The translations under genes and the position numbers were made by a program. The notes beneath the pieces were generated by a model. It searched no databases. It saw only the letters and a list, made by a program, of their open reading frames with translations, and was not told the DNA's origin. DNA of 64,000 nucleotides from the human T2T-CHM13v2.0 reference genome, Homo sapiens. The number at the start of each line of letters is the position of its first letter. The stretch's first letter is position 1. The stretch lies in assembly GCF_009914755.1 (NCBI RefSeq), contig NC_060930.1; one strand, given 5' to 3'. Below, one piece after another: positions 38,672 to 53,997 of the stretch.

Positions 38672-38933
38672 TTAGTTTTTGTCTGTTTTAGCAAAAATCT
38701 GCAATTGGCATTTCCCATGTGATGCTGCGTGTTGAGGGCTCATCTGCTTCTCGTCCAGGACGACATTTCCAGCTTCATCTTTGATCTTAACCCTCCCGGA
38801 GGCATACTTGGTTTCCTGACAGCCGCTGCAATACACAGTCTTGACGGTGCCATCCGGGTACTCCCTCCTCTTGAACCGGGCTGTGTGGATTTCTTTCTGC
38901 CCGTTGCTGAGCACAATGGTTTTGTCGCCGTTC
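38672..38933 (-). CDS. TCP10: TCP10 long-form terminal exon, TCP/G-box domain ([34 protein letters not shown]…)
   Basis: Acceptor TCTCCTCTCAG|G; open to TAA; strongly resembles the CENPJ C-terminus (…[19 protein letters not shown], recalled). Confidence 0.8.
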
Positions 38934-39931
38934 CTGAGAGGAGAAACACATGGTAAGGCGGCCTGTGCCAGGGTGGAGGCCAGTGGGGGTTGGGGGAGCA
39001 CAGAATAATGCCCCCACCCGGGTCTGGAGCCCTCCTTCCAAATCTCGTTAGATGAGGGTGCAGAAGGCCACGGGCAGGGGCAGGAAAGGTGCACGGGGGG
39101 CTCAGGGAATCGGCAGAAACTCGGTGTGGGTGAGAGAGGGCAGGTGGGGAGGGCCAGGAGGGAGGGCGGGAGGTCAGCCGCATCTGCTCACCTGCAGGCT
39201 GAAGCCTGTGCTGACAGCTCGCTCTGATGGTGAGAGGGATGGCAGGGTTGACACAGGGAGTGACAGAAACACACATTGAATCATTTCAGAAAAGTGGCCC
39301 CGGAGGTGACAGGGAAGGTTCTGACTGCTGTGAGGAAGCTGGGGGAGTCTATTGTAATTGCCCAGGGGAGAAATGGTGAGAGCGGGAGACCTCAGATCTC
39401 AGAGAAAGGGTGGAGGCGAGACAGCGAGGAGACACAGCCCACAGCGCTCCGTGTTCACTTTGATATCAGGAAAGAAAGGGAAGGTGTAAAACAACTTCCC
39501 ACACTCTCCCTCGGGCAGCTGAGTGGATCTTTACTTTCTGCACAAACTAGCATTGAAATAGCAGCTCTGATGAGCTCTTCCTTGGTGTGCCTTAAACATT
39601 TGCTTGCACATGTTCTGCAATAGACTCGGGCTTCTAGACCACATGGTCTGAGGTGAGCACTGAAGACTGGAGTGATTTTTACGGTTATAATTCAAACGAA
39701 GCTAATGTTGGTGAAGTAAATACCTAAAAGCCCATTTGAAACCCACAGTCTGTAGAAAGGGATTCAAATCAAGGCCATAAGACAAAACTTCTAGAGTCAA
39801 TGACATTATTTTCTTTTTTTTTATACAAGCACTTAAATGTTTGCAAAAATCTAAATTAATATAAAGAAATTATTAAATACACAAACAAAAACTGGGGATG
39901 TTTTGAATTCGCATTGTCTGACATTACTGAC

Positions 39932-40049
39932 CTTTCCACCCTTACGATTGTCCCATCAGGAAATAAGGTCTCTTCCTGTCCATCCTTGAGATGTTCCACC
40001 GTCCCGTCGGGAAACACGATTTCTTTGGAGCCATTGGGGTAGAATTTTT
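39932..40049 (-). CDS. TCP10: TCP10 long-form exon ([17 protein letters not shown]…[11 protein letters not shown])
   Basis: TTCTGCAG| acceptor, AG|GTCAGT donor; 118 nt, phase 1 to 2; (F/Y)P(D/N)G repeats. Confidence 0.8.
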
Positions 40050-40155
40050 CTGCAGAATGCAGTTTTTCAGTATATGTTACATTGAATCTGTTTAGAAACA
40101 TGTTCTATGCAAATAATCTATAAAATATTCATGAGATTTATAGAGAGTATTTTCT

Positions 40156-40460
40156 TTCCTTTTCTTTTCTTTTCTTTTTTTTTTTTTTGAGACAGAGTCT
40201 CACTCTGTCACCCAGGCTGCAGGGCAGTGGCAGGATCTTGGCTCACTGCAAGCTCTGCCTCCCGGGTTCACGCCATTCTCCTGCCTCAGCCTCCCGAGTA
40301 GCTGGGACTACAGGCGCCTGCCACCACGCCCGGCTAATGTTTTGTATTTTTAGTAGAGACGGGGTTTCCCCCTGTGTTAGCCAGGCTGATTGTGATCTCT
40401 CTACCTCGTGATCCGCCCGCCAACGCCTCCCAAAGTGCTGGGATTACAGGCGTGAGCTAC
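40156..40460 (-). mobile_element. AluY
   Basis: CAAGCT and CACGCCATTC diagnostics; TSD AGAGAGTATTTTCT at 40142-40155 and 40461-40474. Confidence 0.93.
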
Positions 40461-40492
40461 AGAGAGTATTTTCTAATCATCTGGCTTTATAA

Positions 40493-50708: not shown

Positions 50709-51442
50709 CCTGGGAATATTTCCTGATTTTTTTAATGCAGAAATTGAGGCTTGATGAGATGAATTAATTGGCTGGTGTTGGCACAGCTGGTCTGGCAGAG
50801 CTGCCAGTCAGCCGAGCCCGTGAAGCCCAAGTCCATGCTTTCTGCTCCACCTGCAAGGTGGCTGCCGGGCCCAGTGCCTCCTCCCGGCTGTAAAAATCGT
50901 CTCCCTGGATCTCACCTCCAGCTTGTACCAGGGATTAGCTCCTGACTCTGCCTAACTTTGTTGCAATACTAATGCTAGTTCTACAATCAATGCACATGTA
51001 CTAAGTGTTTACCACTGTGTTTCTAGAGAGTTCTACAGAAGAGACATTATTTAATGGACTATGTTACTTAACTTTCATAACCATCTTTTGACTTAGGTCC
51101 TAATTATCAGCCACATTTTGCAGAGGCTTAGAAAAGCTGAAAACAATGACTGAACTCAGAGCCAGGAGGGGTGCTGGTGCACTCTTGTGTCACCGTGCAG
51201 ATCGGAGGGTCTTGACAACAGGGTCTCACTTGCCTGAGTGCACCGAGGAAGCAGAACAGCCTGGCTCATAGAGAGCCTTGCCCGCCTCCACAGCCTGTGC
51301 TCTGCTCGTCCCCACCAACCCATCCTGAACACCCAGAGGAAAGGGGGTACAGATGTGCAAAATCGTTCCTAATAACTGAGTTAGTTTTGATTTCTTTTAA
51401 AAAAAGACAGATCTTTTTTCAAAAAAGATCCATTGTACACAC

Positions 51443-51848
51443 CACTCTCCGACTGGGTTTGATCTTCTTCACGTCACCATTAGAAAACCGGATGATGTGT
51501 TCTCACTCAGAGGTGGGAATTGAACAATGAGAACACTTGGACACAGGAAGGGGAACATCAGACACCCGGGCCTGTCGTGGGGAGCGGGGAGGGGGGAAGG
51601 ATAGCATTAGGAGATATACCTAATGTAAATGACGAGTTAATGGGAGCAGGACACCAACATGGCACATGTATACATATGTAACAAACCTGCACATTGTGCA
51701 CATGTACCCTAGAACTTAAATTATAATAAATAAATAAATAAATAAAAGAAAACCGGATGATGGTCGCCTTCTTATCCATGCTCGGCTCCTTCTGGCTGGC
51801 CTCGGGGAAGGTGGTGATGGCACAACCTTCGCTCAGTGCCTGTTCTAC
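51443..51848 (-). pseudogene. TCP10: L1-disrupted TCP10 long-form exon (VEQALSEGCAITTFPEASQKEPSMDKKATIIRFS / NGDVKKIKPSRRV)
   Basis: ATAAAG|GTA acceptor, GTG|GTGTGT donor; 141 nt (47 codons) once the L1 and one TSD copy are removed. Confidence 0.85.
51498..51746 (+). mobile_element. 5'-truncated L1PA (about PA4-PA6) 3' end
   Basis: L1 3'UTR (AATGTAAATGACGAGTTAATGGG, CCTAGAACTTAAA) with (TAAA)n tail; TSD AGAAAACCGGATGATG at 51482-51497 and 51747-51762. Confidence 0.95.
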
Positions 51849-53748
51849 CTTTATGGAAACACAAAAGCTCCAAGATGAAAAATGATGTAAAGCCTGATTA
51901 TTGTGGTTTCATTATTTTTTCTCCAATTCAGAATTATCATATGATTATCGCCTACATGGCATTCTCGACACTGGCTGTGATATTTCCCCCAAAATTGTAC
52001 TGACTGAGTAGATCAGGTCCAAATTCCCATCCCCGAATGTGGTTATCAGTAATGAATAAGTGCTATGATCTGTCCCACCAACATCCGTCTTTCATAAGCT
52101 CGTGTCCCACAGTGGCCATCAGTCTAGATCTTCCACGGCCGCTGACTTGGTGAGTTTAGAGTCCTGGGCCATGGGAATTGTGGTAATTACTACGTAAAAA
52201 TTACTCTTGGAAGCTTTTTCTTTCCTTTTCATCCCAATCTCCTTACCTCTACGCTCCTACGGCCCATCCCAAAGATGTGTTGATTTTAATTAACTATCAG
52301 CAAATATTATATAACCTCATGTGCATAATGCTGGACAAGGAATGTAGAAAGAATATCTTTGTCTTCACATTGAAAATATTACTCCTGTAAAGATTAGCAA
52401 AAGAAAATATCTGAGAGAAATAATCTCAAGATCTGGGGAGTTAAGATAAGTGCATGTGAAAATTCCAAATGGCAAAATGTGTTTTTGTTATTTATGTCAC
52501 ACTGTCCCTCTTAACCATAGCTCAGAAATATAGGTGTTAATTCAGCTGAGAAAATACAAAGGGAATAGAAGCGAATGCTGGGCTTCTTAAACTGTCTTCA
52601 ACCATCCACCAAACAAACCTTGACGGTGTGCGCCACCTGCTGGCCGGGACAACAGCCTCCTGTTTGATGGGGTTTGAACTAAGATGACTCCACCTGCTCC
52701 CAAACCAACTCGGTGAATGAAGCAGGGCTGTGTTCAGTTCCGTATCTGAAGATGAACTTTTAACCAACACTAACAGCTCCGACAATGTTTAAAGAATCAA
52801 TTACTCTCAGAAGTAATAAAGCACAAATAATATTTTAAATGTTCCACATGAAAAGAATCAAACAATCTATTTTGGAGTTTATATTATTAAAAGAAAGAAA
52901 ACACAAAAAAGGAAAGAACTTTGGCATATCCAATGCAAGATACACAAGAAGTAGATGCAAGATGAGTCACGAGAAGAGGAAAGTGCTGAAGACCTGGGAG
53001 GGAGGGTGGGGGAGCCAGAGACATAGGGGCAGGCAGAGGTGGGTGACCGCTGGTTGTGGGGAGAAAGGAAGGATCGCGCTAGCAGAGGGCACAGCGCGTT
53101 ACCTAGTTCTTGTGTCCTCATCTTCGTGGTTTCATGAGCTTCAGCGATTGGTTCCTCCATGCACTTAGCCAAGGAGGAGCATCACTTATGTCTCATGGAC
53201 CTGCCTATGGGGATGGCAAGGTCAGGTGCTCAAATGATGTGGGTTTCCTTCTCCCCTGACAAACCACTACAACCACTGCGCTAAAGACAAAAGCATTTCA
53301 GTGAATTCAAACTGTTACTGCAAGTAGCATTCCCTGTTGTTCATTTATCCAAATGCTTTACCCGCTTGCAAGACATGAATTCGCTTTTACTGAGGCAGAG
53401 TTCCCTCAGCAAAGCTAGCCTGAGGCCGACTCCCAGTTTCTAACAGGCCAGCAAGAGGTGTGAGATGAACGAACTGTTGAGCTGAAGAAGCAGCGATGAT
53501 GTGCTGCCCCAGGCAGGACTGGGTCTCCTCGGAGCTCACAAAACACTGTAGCCGCAGCCGCAGCCGCAGCAGGTGCCTCTTCCCACCCCTTCCTGAGTCA
53601 ATGCCGACCACCGCCACCTTGACGCGTCCTTCCGGAACTGAGCTCTCCTCAAGGGCTAAAATGTGGTGGCTGGAAGATATTTGAGGCTATAGTTTTGGGT
53701 TTTTTTTTAAGTATTTAAAACAAATCTTCCTCCTGAAAAGCGTATTGC

Positions 53749-53754
53749 TTTATT
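53749..53754 (-). terminator. Candidate poly(A) signal AATAAA for short-form TCP10
   Basis: TTTATT on the + strand, about 50 nt after the stop codon. Confidence 0.5.
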
Positions 53755-53805
53755 TACTGGGAATAAACTGGCAGTCAACAATGCTAGAAACGCCTGGCCT
53801 CCAGG

Positions 53806-53997
53806 TCAGGGCCCCATGTCCTGTCTGGAGGGAGCGGCGTGCAGAGCTCCTGGAAATTCACTCGGGAAACCGGACCGCCGGCAGTCATCTGCCTTGCCCT
53901 TTGGATGTCGTTTTTCTTCCTGTACTTCCTCCTTTTTCATCTTAGTGTCCATGGCCTGTGCTATTTCCAGGGAAGATGGTGGGTTTACAGGAAGATT
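53806..53997 (-). CDS. TCP10: TCP10 short-form last coding exon (NLPVNPP…RQDMGP*)
   Basis: TTTCTGCAG|AAT acceptor; 63 aa plus TGA; internal AAG|GCAGAT after 53893. Confidence 0.85.
   Translation of the reverse strand, partial: NLPVNPPSSLEIAQAMDTKMKKEEVQEEKRHPKGKADDCRRSGFPSEFPGALHAAPSRQDMGP

What the first reader, a model, noticed from the sequence alone, without database searches (positions are those of the whole stretch)
38672..53997. Hidden CENPJ/SAS-4-type TCP (G-box) domain scattered across 15 kb downstream of the TCP10 stop codon
Seen: four - strand exons with AG/GT boundaries and compatible phases (141 nt after L1 removal, 0-0; 85 nt, 0-1; 118 nt, 1-2; 262 nt terminal). Joined to the first 35 codons of exon 53997-53893 they read …[101 protein letters not shown]…[38 protein letters not shown]…, a 526-aa reconstructed protein. 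Known: this (F/Y)P(D/N)G-repeat beta-meander is the Tcp10_C domain of CENPJ/CPAP/SAS-4, which binds STIL in centriole assembly. Inference: ancestral TCP10 was a CENPJ paralog (coiled coil plus TCP domain), plausibly acting at the sperm centriole, and the 353-aa form is a truncation. Some annotated transcripts may already use these exons.
Basis: partly seen in the sequence, partly recalled or inferred. Interest (0 to 1): 0.85.

Follow-up and report, generated by a model that had tools for sequence, protein, structure and literature searches.

The report
Leftover TCP-domain exons behind TCP10L3
The DNA behind the human TCP10L3 pseudogene still holds the old final exons that encode the CENPJ-like TCP (G-box) domain, as in mouse Tcp10, but one exon is broken by an L1 insert, and the gene family's kinship with CENPJ is already known.

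Summary
Four minus-strand exons with AG/GT borders lie at 51848-51443 (141 nt without an L1 insert), 48334-48250 (85 nt), 40049-39932 (118 nt) and 38933-38672 (262 nt). They match Pfam Tcp10_C (3e-17, 3.3e-14, 1.1e-3) and the solved zebrafish CPAP TCP domain (9.5e-24). With exon 53997-53893 they parallel the last five CENPJ exons (111/141/85/121/193 nt) in order and phase.

Mouse, rat and horse-family TCP10 proteins carry exactly this layout. Pfam named the domain after TCP10, and papers state the CENPJ homology. A human Gnomon model (XP_016866720.1) already joins the last two exons, and chimpanzee, baboon and marmoset models use all four.

In human the full domain cannot be made:
- The position of the ancestral donor after 53893 reads GC.
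- Exon A carries a 250-nt L1 3' fragment with a 16-nt target duplication.
- Both defects are shared with the only other copy, 160 kb away.
- That copy also has a frameshift and a lost donor.
- Exon differences between the two copies are 9 non-synonymous to 2 synonymous.

Verdict: real decaying relic exons of known ancestry, of low novelty.

The parts
54988..55088 (-). Annotated TCP10L3 exon upstream of E0. Its regular donor follows 54988, and a second GT lies 4 nt further on (extension 54987-54984, donor 54983-54982).
   Evidence: One search prints CAG|gtaggt. Using the second GT puts exon C in frame. This explains the junction residues seen in human model P0002 and in the four Old World monkey proteins P0007, P0008, P0011 and P0012.
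53893..53997 (-). Exon E0, 105 nt, phase 0-0. It is the first 35 codons of the annotated last exon and the homologue of the 111-nt CENPJ exon that ends at the same HP-x-GK position.
   Evidence: The E0-like segment is present in 37 of 49 non-primate mammal proteins and 0 of 10 primate proteins.
53727..53892 (-). Read-through part of the annotated last exon. It starts with GC where the ancestral donor stood (53892-53891), has a stop at 53808-53806 and AATAAA at 53754-53749, and the annotated end is 53727.
   Evidence: The paralog has the same GC; its only difference in this stretch is at 53899.
51747..51848 (-). Exon A, first part (102 nt), with an AG acceptor at 51850-51849.
   Evidence: Joined in a script with the second part, it aligns to the 141-nt CENPJ exon at 39% identity over 51 aa, E 3.1e-10 against 20 kb.
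51497..51746 (+). 5'-truncated L1 3'-end fragment with an A-rich tail, sense on the + strand and so antisense to the gene. It is flanked by a 16-nt target-site duplication (51762-51747 and 51497-51482). Read through, it puts a stop in frame 63 codons past the insertion point.
   Evidence: NCBI masks 51576-51756 as repeat. The genome search gave 2355 candidates and scored 40: the window itself at 100%, the paralog at 98% and the other 38 at 92-95%. The family name L1 is recalled from the sequence, not given by a tool.
51443..51481 (-). Exon A, second part (39 nt), with a GT donor at 51442-51441.
   Evidence: The paralog has TT at the donor.
48250..48334 (-). Exon B, 85 nt, phase 0-1. It encodes six of the eight STIL-contact positions.
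   Evidence: The paralog has a 1-nt insertion here that gives stops.
39932..40049 (-). Exon C, 118 nt, phase 1-2.
   Evidence: Tcp10_C at 3.3e-14. It is 68% identical to the 121-nt CENPJ exon and is used in P0002.
38672..38933 (-). Exon D, the terminal coding exon: 262 nt including TAA. It holds the end of the TCP domain plus a 24-residue tail.
   Evidence: Tcp10_C at 3e-17 and 4bxp_A at 9.5e-24. It is 100% identical to P0002 and shows 0 differences from the paralog.

Best explanation
These are the original 3' exons of the TCP10 gene, left behind the annotated end of TCP10L3.

Origin. TCP10 arose as an intron-containing partial copy of CENPJ: a coiled-coil exon plus the five exons that end in the TCP/G-box domain. 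In mouse, rat and the horse family the gene is still read E0-A-B-C-D.

State in human. The complete domain can no longer be encoded, for three reasons:
1. The base pair where the E0 donor stood reads GC. The curated transcripts therefore run on into the old intron, reach a stop after 28 more codons and use an AATAAA. This gives the 353-aa form.
2. Exon A is split by an L1 3' fragment that brings a stop codon.
3. The only other copy in the genome, 160 kb away and inverted, shares both defects. It has in addition a dead exon-A donor and a frameshift in exon B.

What is still open. Exons B, C and D of this copy remain open. Exons C and D can still be reached in frame from a second GT 4 nt past exon 55088-54988. 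That isoform would carry only the C-terminal ~60% of the beta-sheet and would lack seven of the eight known STIL-contact positions.

Shown: the anatomy, the homology, the exon parallels, the defects and their sharing between copies. Inferred: that the GC is a mutated GT, that the L1 spread between copies by gene conversion, and that exons A and B now drift neutrally.
For: Domain and fold
- Tcp10_C hits on exons D, C and B.
- Exon D against the solved CPAP TCP domain, E 9.5e-24.
- The model of P0002 has 12 strands at pLDDT about 90. It overlays 4bxq/4bxp at 1.7-1.9 A over 108 columns, TM 0.58 by target length.

Exon parallels with CENPJ on chr13
- Lengths are 105/111, 141/141, 85/85, 118/121 and terminal, with the same phases.
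- The coiled-coil exon is also matched.

Ancestral layout in other mammals
- Mouse Tcp-10 (P0068) and donkey (P0079) read straight through E0-A-B-C-D.
- E0+A-D is present in 28 of 49 non-primate proteins, and A-D in 40 of 49.
- In the tree the human conceptual domain sits inside a mammal TCP10 clade (SH-aLRT 100), next to chimpanzee. Human CENPJ sits with the other CENPJ sequences.

Defects
- GC after 53893.
- L1 insert with a 16-nt duplication and an in-frame stop.
- Both are present in the paralog, which also has GT->TT and a +1 frameshift.
- E0 has only 2 copies in the genome. Tcp10_C matches occur only at these two loci and at CENPJ: 4 matches among 40 scored candidates.

Drift
- There are 11 substitutions between the copies in exons A-C, 9 non-synonymous and 2 synonymous.

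Still usable C+D route
- Human model P0002 and four Old World monkey proteins have that junction.
Against: - No outgroup DNA was available, so the ancestral GT at 53892 is inferred. It rests only on CENPJ (GT at the same codon boundary) and on proteins of other mammals.
- E0 is absent from all 10 primate proteins and from 12 of 49 others. It may therefore be a cassette exon, and its loss may not be the step that truncated the human gene.
- Exons C and D of this copy are intact, and D is identical between the copies.
- By rough count, human against macaque P0007 is 95 of 102 identical residues in C+D and 236 of 288 upstream. This would fit some constraint on C and D and a live alternative 3' end rather than pure decay.
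- Chimpanzee, baboon and marmoset models show exon A unbroken. The L1 looks too old to be human-specific (other copies 92-95% identical). The history of the insert is therefore unresolved.
- No expression data could be seen.
Confidence: 0.85

Rival explanations
1. This is a live alternative 3' end, not a relic. Human testis transcripts splice from the second donor of exon 55088-54988 to exons C and D and make a protein with a coiled coil and a half TCP domain, kept by selection.
For: - The human Gnomon model P0002 (390 aa) has exactly this structure. So do proteins of four Old World monkeys (P0007, P0008, P0011, P0012).
- Exons C and D are open with AG/GT borders.
- The half domain is modelled with high confidence.
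- C+D are better conserved between human and macaque than the N-terminal part.
Against: - The RefSeq table given with the finding calls the gene a transcribed pseudogene, and none of its 4 transcripts goes below 53727.
- In the paralog, exon C has 5 substitutions, 3 of them non-synonymous.
- The stretch with no differences around exon D is 586 nt long and runs well into intron and 3' flank. It looks like gene conversion, not selection on the exon.
- A gene model is not a transcript.
- This isoform keeps only 1 of the 8 STIL-contact positions.
Confidence: 0.3
2. The full domain was lost on the human lineage. An L1-free copy still works in chimpanzee and other primates, while in human the L1-bearing version overwrote the other copy by gene conversion.
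For: - Both human copies carry the insert, and there are only two copies.
- The block 62144-47271 that holds the insert is 98.5% identical between the copies, against 95.4-95.8% for the next two blocks.
- Chimpanzee (P0003, P0005), baboon (P0009) and marmoset (P0082) models have exon A unbroken.
Against: - The primate sequences are gene models that I could not check against DNA.
- Copy number and L1 state in apes are unknown here.
- The L1 fragment's 92-95% identity to other copies (only 40 of 2355 candidates scored) points to an insertion older than the human-chimpanzee split.
Confidence: 0.3
3. The similarity is chance, or the exons are a processed copy of CENPJ or part of a separate gene.
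For: None beyond the fact that the exons are not in the current annotation.
Against: - E-values of 3e-17 and 9.5e-24.
- Introns of 1-8 kb sit at the CENPJ positions, so it is not a retrocopy.
- The exons have the same strand and order as TCP10L3 and the same junctions as mouse Tcp-10.
- The tree places the domain with TCP10, not CENPJ.
Confidence: 0.01

Closest known systems
Mouse Tcp10a/b/c (t-complex protein 10) and other non-primate TCP10 proteins
   Same: The segments are in the same order: coiled coil, low-complexity middle, E0-like segment, then four Tcp10_C repeat stretches ending the protein. Mouse P0068 scores 1.4e-48 for Tcp10_C in 4 stretches, and donkey P0079 scores 6.5e-49.
   Different: In human the run is broken by a GC at the E0 donor position and an L1 in exon A. 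The curated product stops at 353 aa. Catarrhine sequences add a 24-residue tail after the domain.
CENPJ / CPAP / SAS-4 TCP (G-box) domain, PDB 4bxp, 4bxr, 4ld1
   Same: - Same Pfam family.
- Same exon lengths and phases for the last five exons.
- Same open beta-meander in the model.
- 6 of the 8 STIL-contact positions named in PMC3776556 are kept in the human conceptual translation. This was mapped by hand from the alignment.
   Different: - TCP10 is a short protein; those listed run to about 580 aa. It is a separate mammal clade.
- The equivalents of zebrafish Y996 and H1003 are H and R in human.
- That TCP10 lacks the N-terminal tubulin-binding parts of CENPJ is recalled, not tested.
Human model XP_016866720.1 (P0002) and the 403- and 417-aa Old World monkey 'T-complex protein 10A homolog' proteins
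   Same: They use exons C and D of this locus, or its orthologue, through the second donor. P0002 is 100% identical to exon D and matches 40 of 41 residues of exon C.
   Different: They skip E0, A and B, so they hold only the C-terminal part of the domain. P0002 is a mosaic against this assembly: its first exon fits the paralog (21 of 21 residues) and its exon C fits the window.

Membership tests
Pfam Tcp10_C (PF07202) / TCP (G-box) domain | Profile match above the curated cut-off (36 bits) | tested here: met
   Exon D ORF 62.4 bits and exon C ORF 52.7 bits. Exon B scores 19 bits, below the cut-off, and exon A gives no hit. Human model P0002 scores 119.5 bits.
Pfam Tcp10_C (PF07202) / TCP (G-box) domain | Sequence match to a solved TCP domain over its length | tested here: met
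   Exon D against 4bxp_A gives 9.5e-24 over chain residues 130-191. Chimpanzee P0005, which is 45 of 47 and 27 of 28 residues identical to human exons A and B, covers chain residues 11-191 at 4.4e-63.
Pfam Tcp10_C (PF07202) / TCP (G-box) domain | Single-layer beta-meander fold | tested here: met
   Tested only for the C+D part. The model of P0002 has 12 strands at residues 264-366 with pLDDT about 90. Its best PDB matches are 4bxq and 4bxp, rmsd 1.7-1.9 A over 108 columns. The likeness to solved relatives makes this an easy pass.
Pfam Tcp10_C (PF07202) / TCP (G-box) domain | Whole domain encoded by an uninterrupted reading frame of one transcript in this genome | tested here: not met
   The L1 insert in exon A brings an in-frame stop. 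There is a GC at the E0 donor position. The second copy is also broken. No transcript in the annotation table reaches these exons.
Pfam Tcp10_C (PF07202) / TCP (G-box) domain | STIL proline-motif contact residues (zebrafish F978, Y994, Y996, H1003, T1005, F1015, Q1019, E1021) | tested here: inconclusive
   The residues are named in PMC3776556 (passages). With chain index + 932, all eight fall on the right letters of the chain printed. In the human conceptual translation 6 of 8 are kept (Y996->H, H1003->R). In the C+D isoform 1 of 8 is kept. Binding was not tested.
TCP10 gene family (mammalian CENPJ paralogue) | Groups with TCP10 rather than CENPJ in a tree of the domain | tested here: met
   In a 26-row tree the 10 mammal TCP10 rows are on one side of a branch (SH-aLRT 100). 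Human is nearest to chimpanzee at 97% identity. The tree is unrooted and the human CENPJ branch is long (0.62).
TCP10 gene family (mammalian CENPJ paralogue) | Same locus, strand and exon order as the annotated TCP10L3 exons; junctions as in mouse Tcp-10 | tested here: met
   The duplicated segment shared with the paralog runs through all these exons and ends about 160 nt past the exon D stop.
TCP10 gene family (mammalian CENPJ paralogue) | Intron positions and phases shared with CENPJ | tested here: met
   105/111, 141/141, 85/85 and 118/121 nt plus the terminal exon, with phases 0-0, 0-0, 0-1 and 1-2.
Expressed coding exons of a human gene | Spliced transcripts or peptides from human testis | not testable with these tools
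   No RNA or proteome data were on hand. The only evidence is a computed gene model (P0002).

The most novel reading that the evidence does not exclude
Humans may be the odd primate out. Both human TCP10 copies carry the L1-split exon A, apparently homogenised by gene conversion. No human gene other than CENPJ can then encode the STIL-binding half of a TCP domain, while chimpanzee, baboon and marmoset models still can. That would be a lineage-specific loss of part of a testis protein related to the centriole assembly factor CENPJ.
Probability: 0.3. Interest if true: 0.35.

Novelty: already known. Interest (0 to 1): 0.15.

Why it matters
The value is mainly as annotation. It explains in sequence terms why human TCP10L3 is a truncated, pseudogene-labelled form of a gene that in mouse carries a full CENPJ-type TCP domain. 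It also shows that the curated 353-aa product ends in old intron sequence.

It is a caution for anyone carrying results from mouse Tcp10 (t-complex, HASPIN binding through the glycine repeat, PMC9409403) over to the human genes. It gives two concrete junctions to look for in testis RNA.

It does not open a new question about centrioles. The TCP10-CENPJ relation is textbook-level, since the Pfam family bears the name.

Tried and rejected
- I looked for a third copy of E0 (for example at TCP10L on chr21) to serve as an outgroup for the donor. Only the window and the chr6 paralog match, so there is no outgroup DNA.
- Exon-limited purifying selection on exon D is rejected. The stretch with zero differences runs from 39162 to 38575 (586 nt), well beyond the exon.
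- A young, human-specific L1 is not favoured. The best non-paralog copies are 92-95% identical. Only 40 of 2355 candidates were scored, so this is weak.
- Sauropsid 'centromere protein J-like' proteins of 295-481 aa are not TCP10 orthologues. All 6 tested group by taxon with long CENPJ proteins, so they look like CENPJ fragments.
- In one search I set exon C two bases too long and exon D one, so the translation printed after exon B was out of frame. The tblastn hits to exons A, B and C from that call stand. The coordinates were corrected.
- Five literature searches found no paper on relic TCP-domain exons at the human TCP10 loci. The original human TCP10 cDNA paper and the CPAP discovery paper are not in the library and were not seen.
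- PMC3824074 has no mention of TCP10.
- No supplements were opened.

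
Full report
**What is there**

On the - strand behind the annotated end of TCP10L3 (53727) lie four open exons with AG acceptors and GT donors.
- Exon A is 51848-51747 plus 51481-51443. It is 141 nt once a 250-nt insert and one copy of its 16-nt duplication are taken out, phase 0-0.
- Exon B is 48334-48250 (85 nt, phase 0-1).
- Exon C is 40049-39932 (118 nt, phase 1-2).
- Exon D is 38933-38672 (262 nt with TAA).

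Joining the annotated exons in a script gives a 353-aa ORF. Swapping the read-through part of the last exon for A-D gives 526 aa.

In one search I had exon C two bases too long and exon D one, and the printed frame after exon B was wrong. One search has the right coordinates.

**Is it more than chance**

A Pfam scan of six window ORFs gave Tcp10_C for three of them:
- D at 3e-17, 62.4 bits;
- C at 3.3e-14, 52.7 bits;
- B at 1.1e-3, 19 bits, below the 36-bit cut-off.

The two pieces of exon A and the E0 ORF gave nothing. Exon D matches the solved zebrafish CPAP TCP domain (4bxp_A) at 9.5e-24.

In the whole assembly the family profile found 4 matches among 40 scored candidates. They are this site, a second chr6 site at 168579222-168579311 (+), and two CENPJ exons on chr13.

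**Relation to CENPJ**

Read from the chr13 locus, the last five CENPJ exons are 111, 141, 85, 121 and 193 nt. The TCP10L3 series E0 (53997-53893), A, B, C, D is 105, 141, 85, 118 and 262 nt, with the same phases.
- E0 and the 111-nt CENPJ exon end at the same HP-x-GK codon boundary. CENPJ has GT there, and TCP10L3 has GC (AAG|GCAGAT).
- The coiled-coil exon 61972-61757 (216 nt) matches a 225-nt CENPJ exon at 34% identity over 61 residues (E 3.8e-8 against 20 kb) and starts at the same position in phase 0.

TCP10 is therefore an intron-bearing partial copy of CENPJ, not a retrocopy.

In a 26-row tree of the domain the 10 mammal TCP10 rows are one side of a branch (SH-aLRT 100), with the human conceptual sequence next to chimpanzee (97% identity). 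Human CENPJ lies with the other CENPJ rows. Six short sauropsid 'CENPJ-like' proteins fall with long CENPJ by taxon. The tree is unrooted and the human CENPJ branch is long, so it does not date the duplication.

**Other species and existing models**

A search with exon D among longer proteins gave 475 hits at E <= 0.001 out of 503 candidates, of which 120 were listed.
- Mouse Tcp-10 (P0068, 438 aa) and donkey (P0079, 501 aa) run through E0-like, A, B, C and D segments without a break. Their Tcp10_C scores are 1.4e-48 and 6.5e-49.
- I aligned all 120 to the conceptual 526-aa protein and split them by the names: 16 primate or primate-like, 15 non-mammal short, 23 of 800 aa or more, and 66 other.
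- Of the 66 others, 49 have at least 150 upstream residues aligned. Among those, E0 is present in 37, A-D in 40, and E0 with A-D in 28. Eight lack exon A.
- Of the 16 primate rows, 10 have at least 150 upstream residues aligned. Among those, E0 is present in 0, A and B in 5 (two chimpanzee models, baboon, marmoset and one unnamed row), and C and D in all 10.

The human model XP_016866720.1 (P0002, 390 aa) and four Old World monkey proteins (P0007, P0008, P0011, P0012) go from exon 55088-54988 straight to exon C. The junction fits a second GT 4 nt past the regular donor (CAG|GTAG|GT), which puts exon C in frame.

**Why the human gene cannot make the whole domain**

1. The donor position of E0 reads GC. 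The curated transcripts run on to a stop at 53808-53806 and an AATAAA at 53754.
2. Exon A is split by a 5'-truncated repeat fragment with an A-rich tail on the + strand and a 16-nt target duplication. Read through, it gives a stop 63 codons past the insertion point.
   - I recognise the fragment as the 3' end of L1 from memory.
   - The tools show that NCBI masks it and that the genome holds at least 2355 candidate copies. Of those, 40 were scored: the window itself at 100%, the paralog at 98% and the rest at 92-95%.
3. The only other copy of E0 in the genome lies in an inverted duplicate about 160 kb away.
   - That duplicate is collinear from 64000 down to about 38510. Block identities run from 88.6% to 98.5%. 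They are 98.5% over 62144-47271 and 95.4-97.5% over the three blocks below 46631.
   - It has the same GC and the same insert. In addition it has TT for the exon A donor and a 1-nt insertion in exon B that gives stops.

**Drift or constraint**

Between the two copies, exons A-C differ at 11 sites, 9 non-synonymous and 2 synonymous, 6 of them at CpG. This is what neutral change would give.

Exon D shows no difference. But the difference-free stretch runs from 39162 to 38575 (586 nt), far beyond the exon, so gene conversion is the simpler reading.

Against pure decay: exons B, C and D of this copy are intact. Human and macaque P0007 share 95 of 102 residues in C+D, against 236 of 288 upstream. 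This is a rough protein-level comparison, not a rate test.

**What the remaining exons could do**

PMC3776556 (passages read) names eight zebrafish CPAP residues that contact STIL. With chain index + 932 all eight fall on the right letters of the chain printed.
- Mapped by hand onto the human exons, one lies in exon A at the insertion site, six lie in exon B, and the last is the codon split between B and C.
- The conceptual human sequence keeps 6 of 8: the Y996 equivalent is H and the H1003 equivalent is R.
- The C+D isoform keeps 1 of 8.

A model of P0002 built on a 25-row alignment has a helix at residues 23-77, a low-confidence middle and 12 strands at 264-366 with pLDDT about 90. Its best PDB matches are the CPAP TCP domains 4bxq and 4bxp, at 1.7-1.9 A over 108 columns and TM 0.58 by target length. 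It is therefore about the C-terminal 60% of the sheet. Because close relatives are solved, this pass is easy and shows only that the fold is plausible.

**What is known**
- The Pfam family is called Tcp10_C.
- PMC3499256 (passage) describes CENPJ as having a TCP10-like C-terminal domain.
- PMC6609395 (passages) lists Tcp10a/b/c as lacking zebrafish orthologues.
- Five searches found nothing on the relic exons at the human loci. Older subscription papers on human TCP10 are outside the library.

**Verdict**

The small additions here are:
- the exact exon parallels with CENPJ;
- the GC at the E0 donor position;
- the L1 break shared by both human copies;
- the further decay of the paralog;
- the second donor that keeps C and D reachable.

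Two points are open for lack of outgroup DNA and RNA data: whether human testis still uses C and D, and when the full domain was lost.

Noticed in passing
window 38744-38675 (- strand): After the point where mouse, marmoset, donkey and armadillo TCP10 end, the human frame runs on for 24 more residues. Of the 120 listed proteins, 14 align over at least 20 of these 24. All 14 are among P0001-P0015, and the named ones are apes and Old World monkeys. This looks like loss of the ancestral stop in catarrhines.
   Followed up: partly
window 39162-38575: A 586-nt stretch has no difference from the chr6 paralog, inside a block that is otherwise 97.45% identical. Block identities along the duplicate range from 88.6% to 98.5%. 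The mosaic suggests gene conversion between the two copies.
   Followed up: partly
window about 38510: Homology with the inverted chr6 duplicate ends about 160 nt past the exon D stop. The first ATTAAA after the stop is at 37702, and there is no AATAAA down to 37000. The old 3' UTR end may therefore lie outside the duplicated segment.
   Followed up: no
window 39778-38675 (- strand); protein P0010: An unnamed 368-aa database protein from a 1698-nt record reads without gaps through the last intron's 3' part into exon D. It is 97.8% identical to the paralog and 93.5% to the window. In the window the same stretch has stops.
   Followed up: partly
protein P0002 against window 63474-63412 and 40050-39928: The human model XP_016866720.1 is a mosaic against this assembly. 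Its first exon fits the paralog (21 of 21 residues, against 19 of 21 in the window). Its exon C fits the window (40 of 41, against 37 of 40 in the paralog). The cause may be a difference between assemblies, alleles or conversion.
   Followed up: no
proteins P0038, P0041, P0042, P0043, P0047, P0054, P0065, P0103: Eight of the 49 non-primate TCP10 proteins lack the exon A segment, which is 141 nt and in frame. Twelve lack E0, which is 105 nt and in frame. Both look like cassette exons in other mammals.
   Followed up: partly
proteins P0009, P0006, P0082 against window 51848-51825: Baboon and marmoset models differ from human, chimpanzee, donkey and armadillo in the first eight residues of exon A, although the rest of the exon is alike. 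I did not work out the cause.
   Followed up: no
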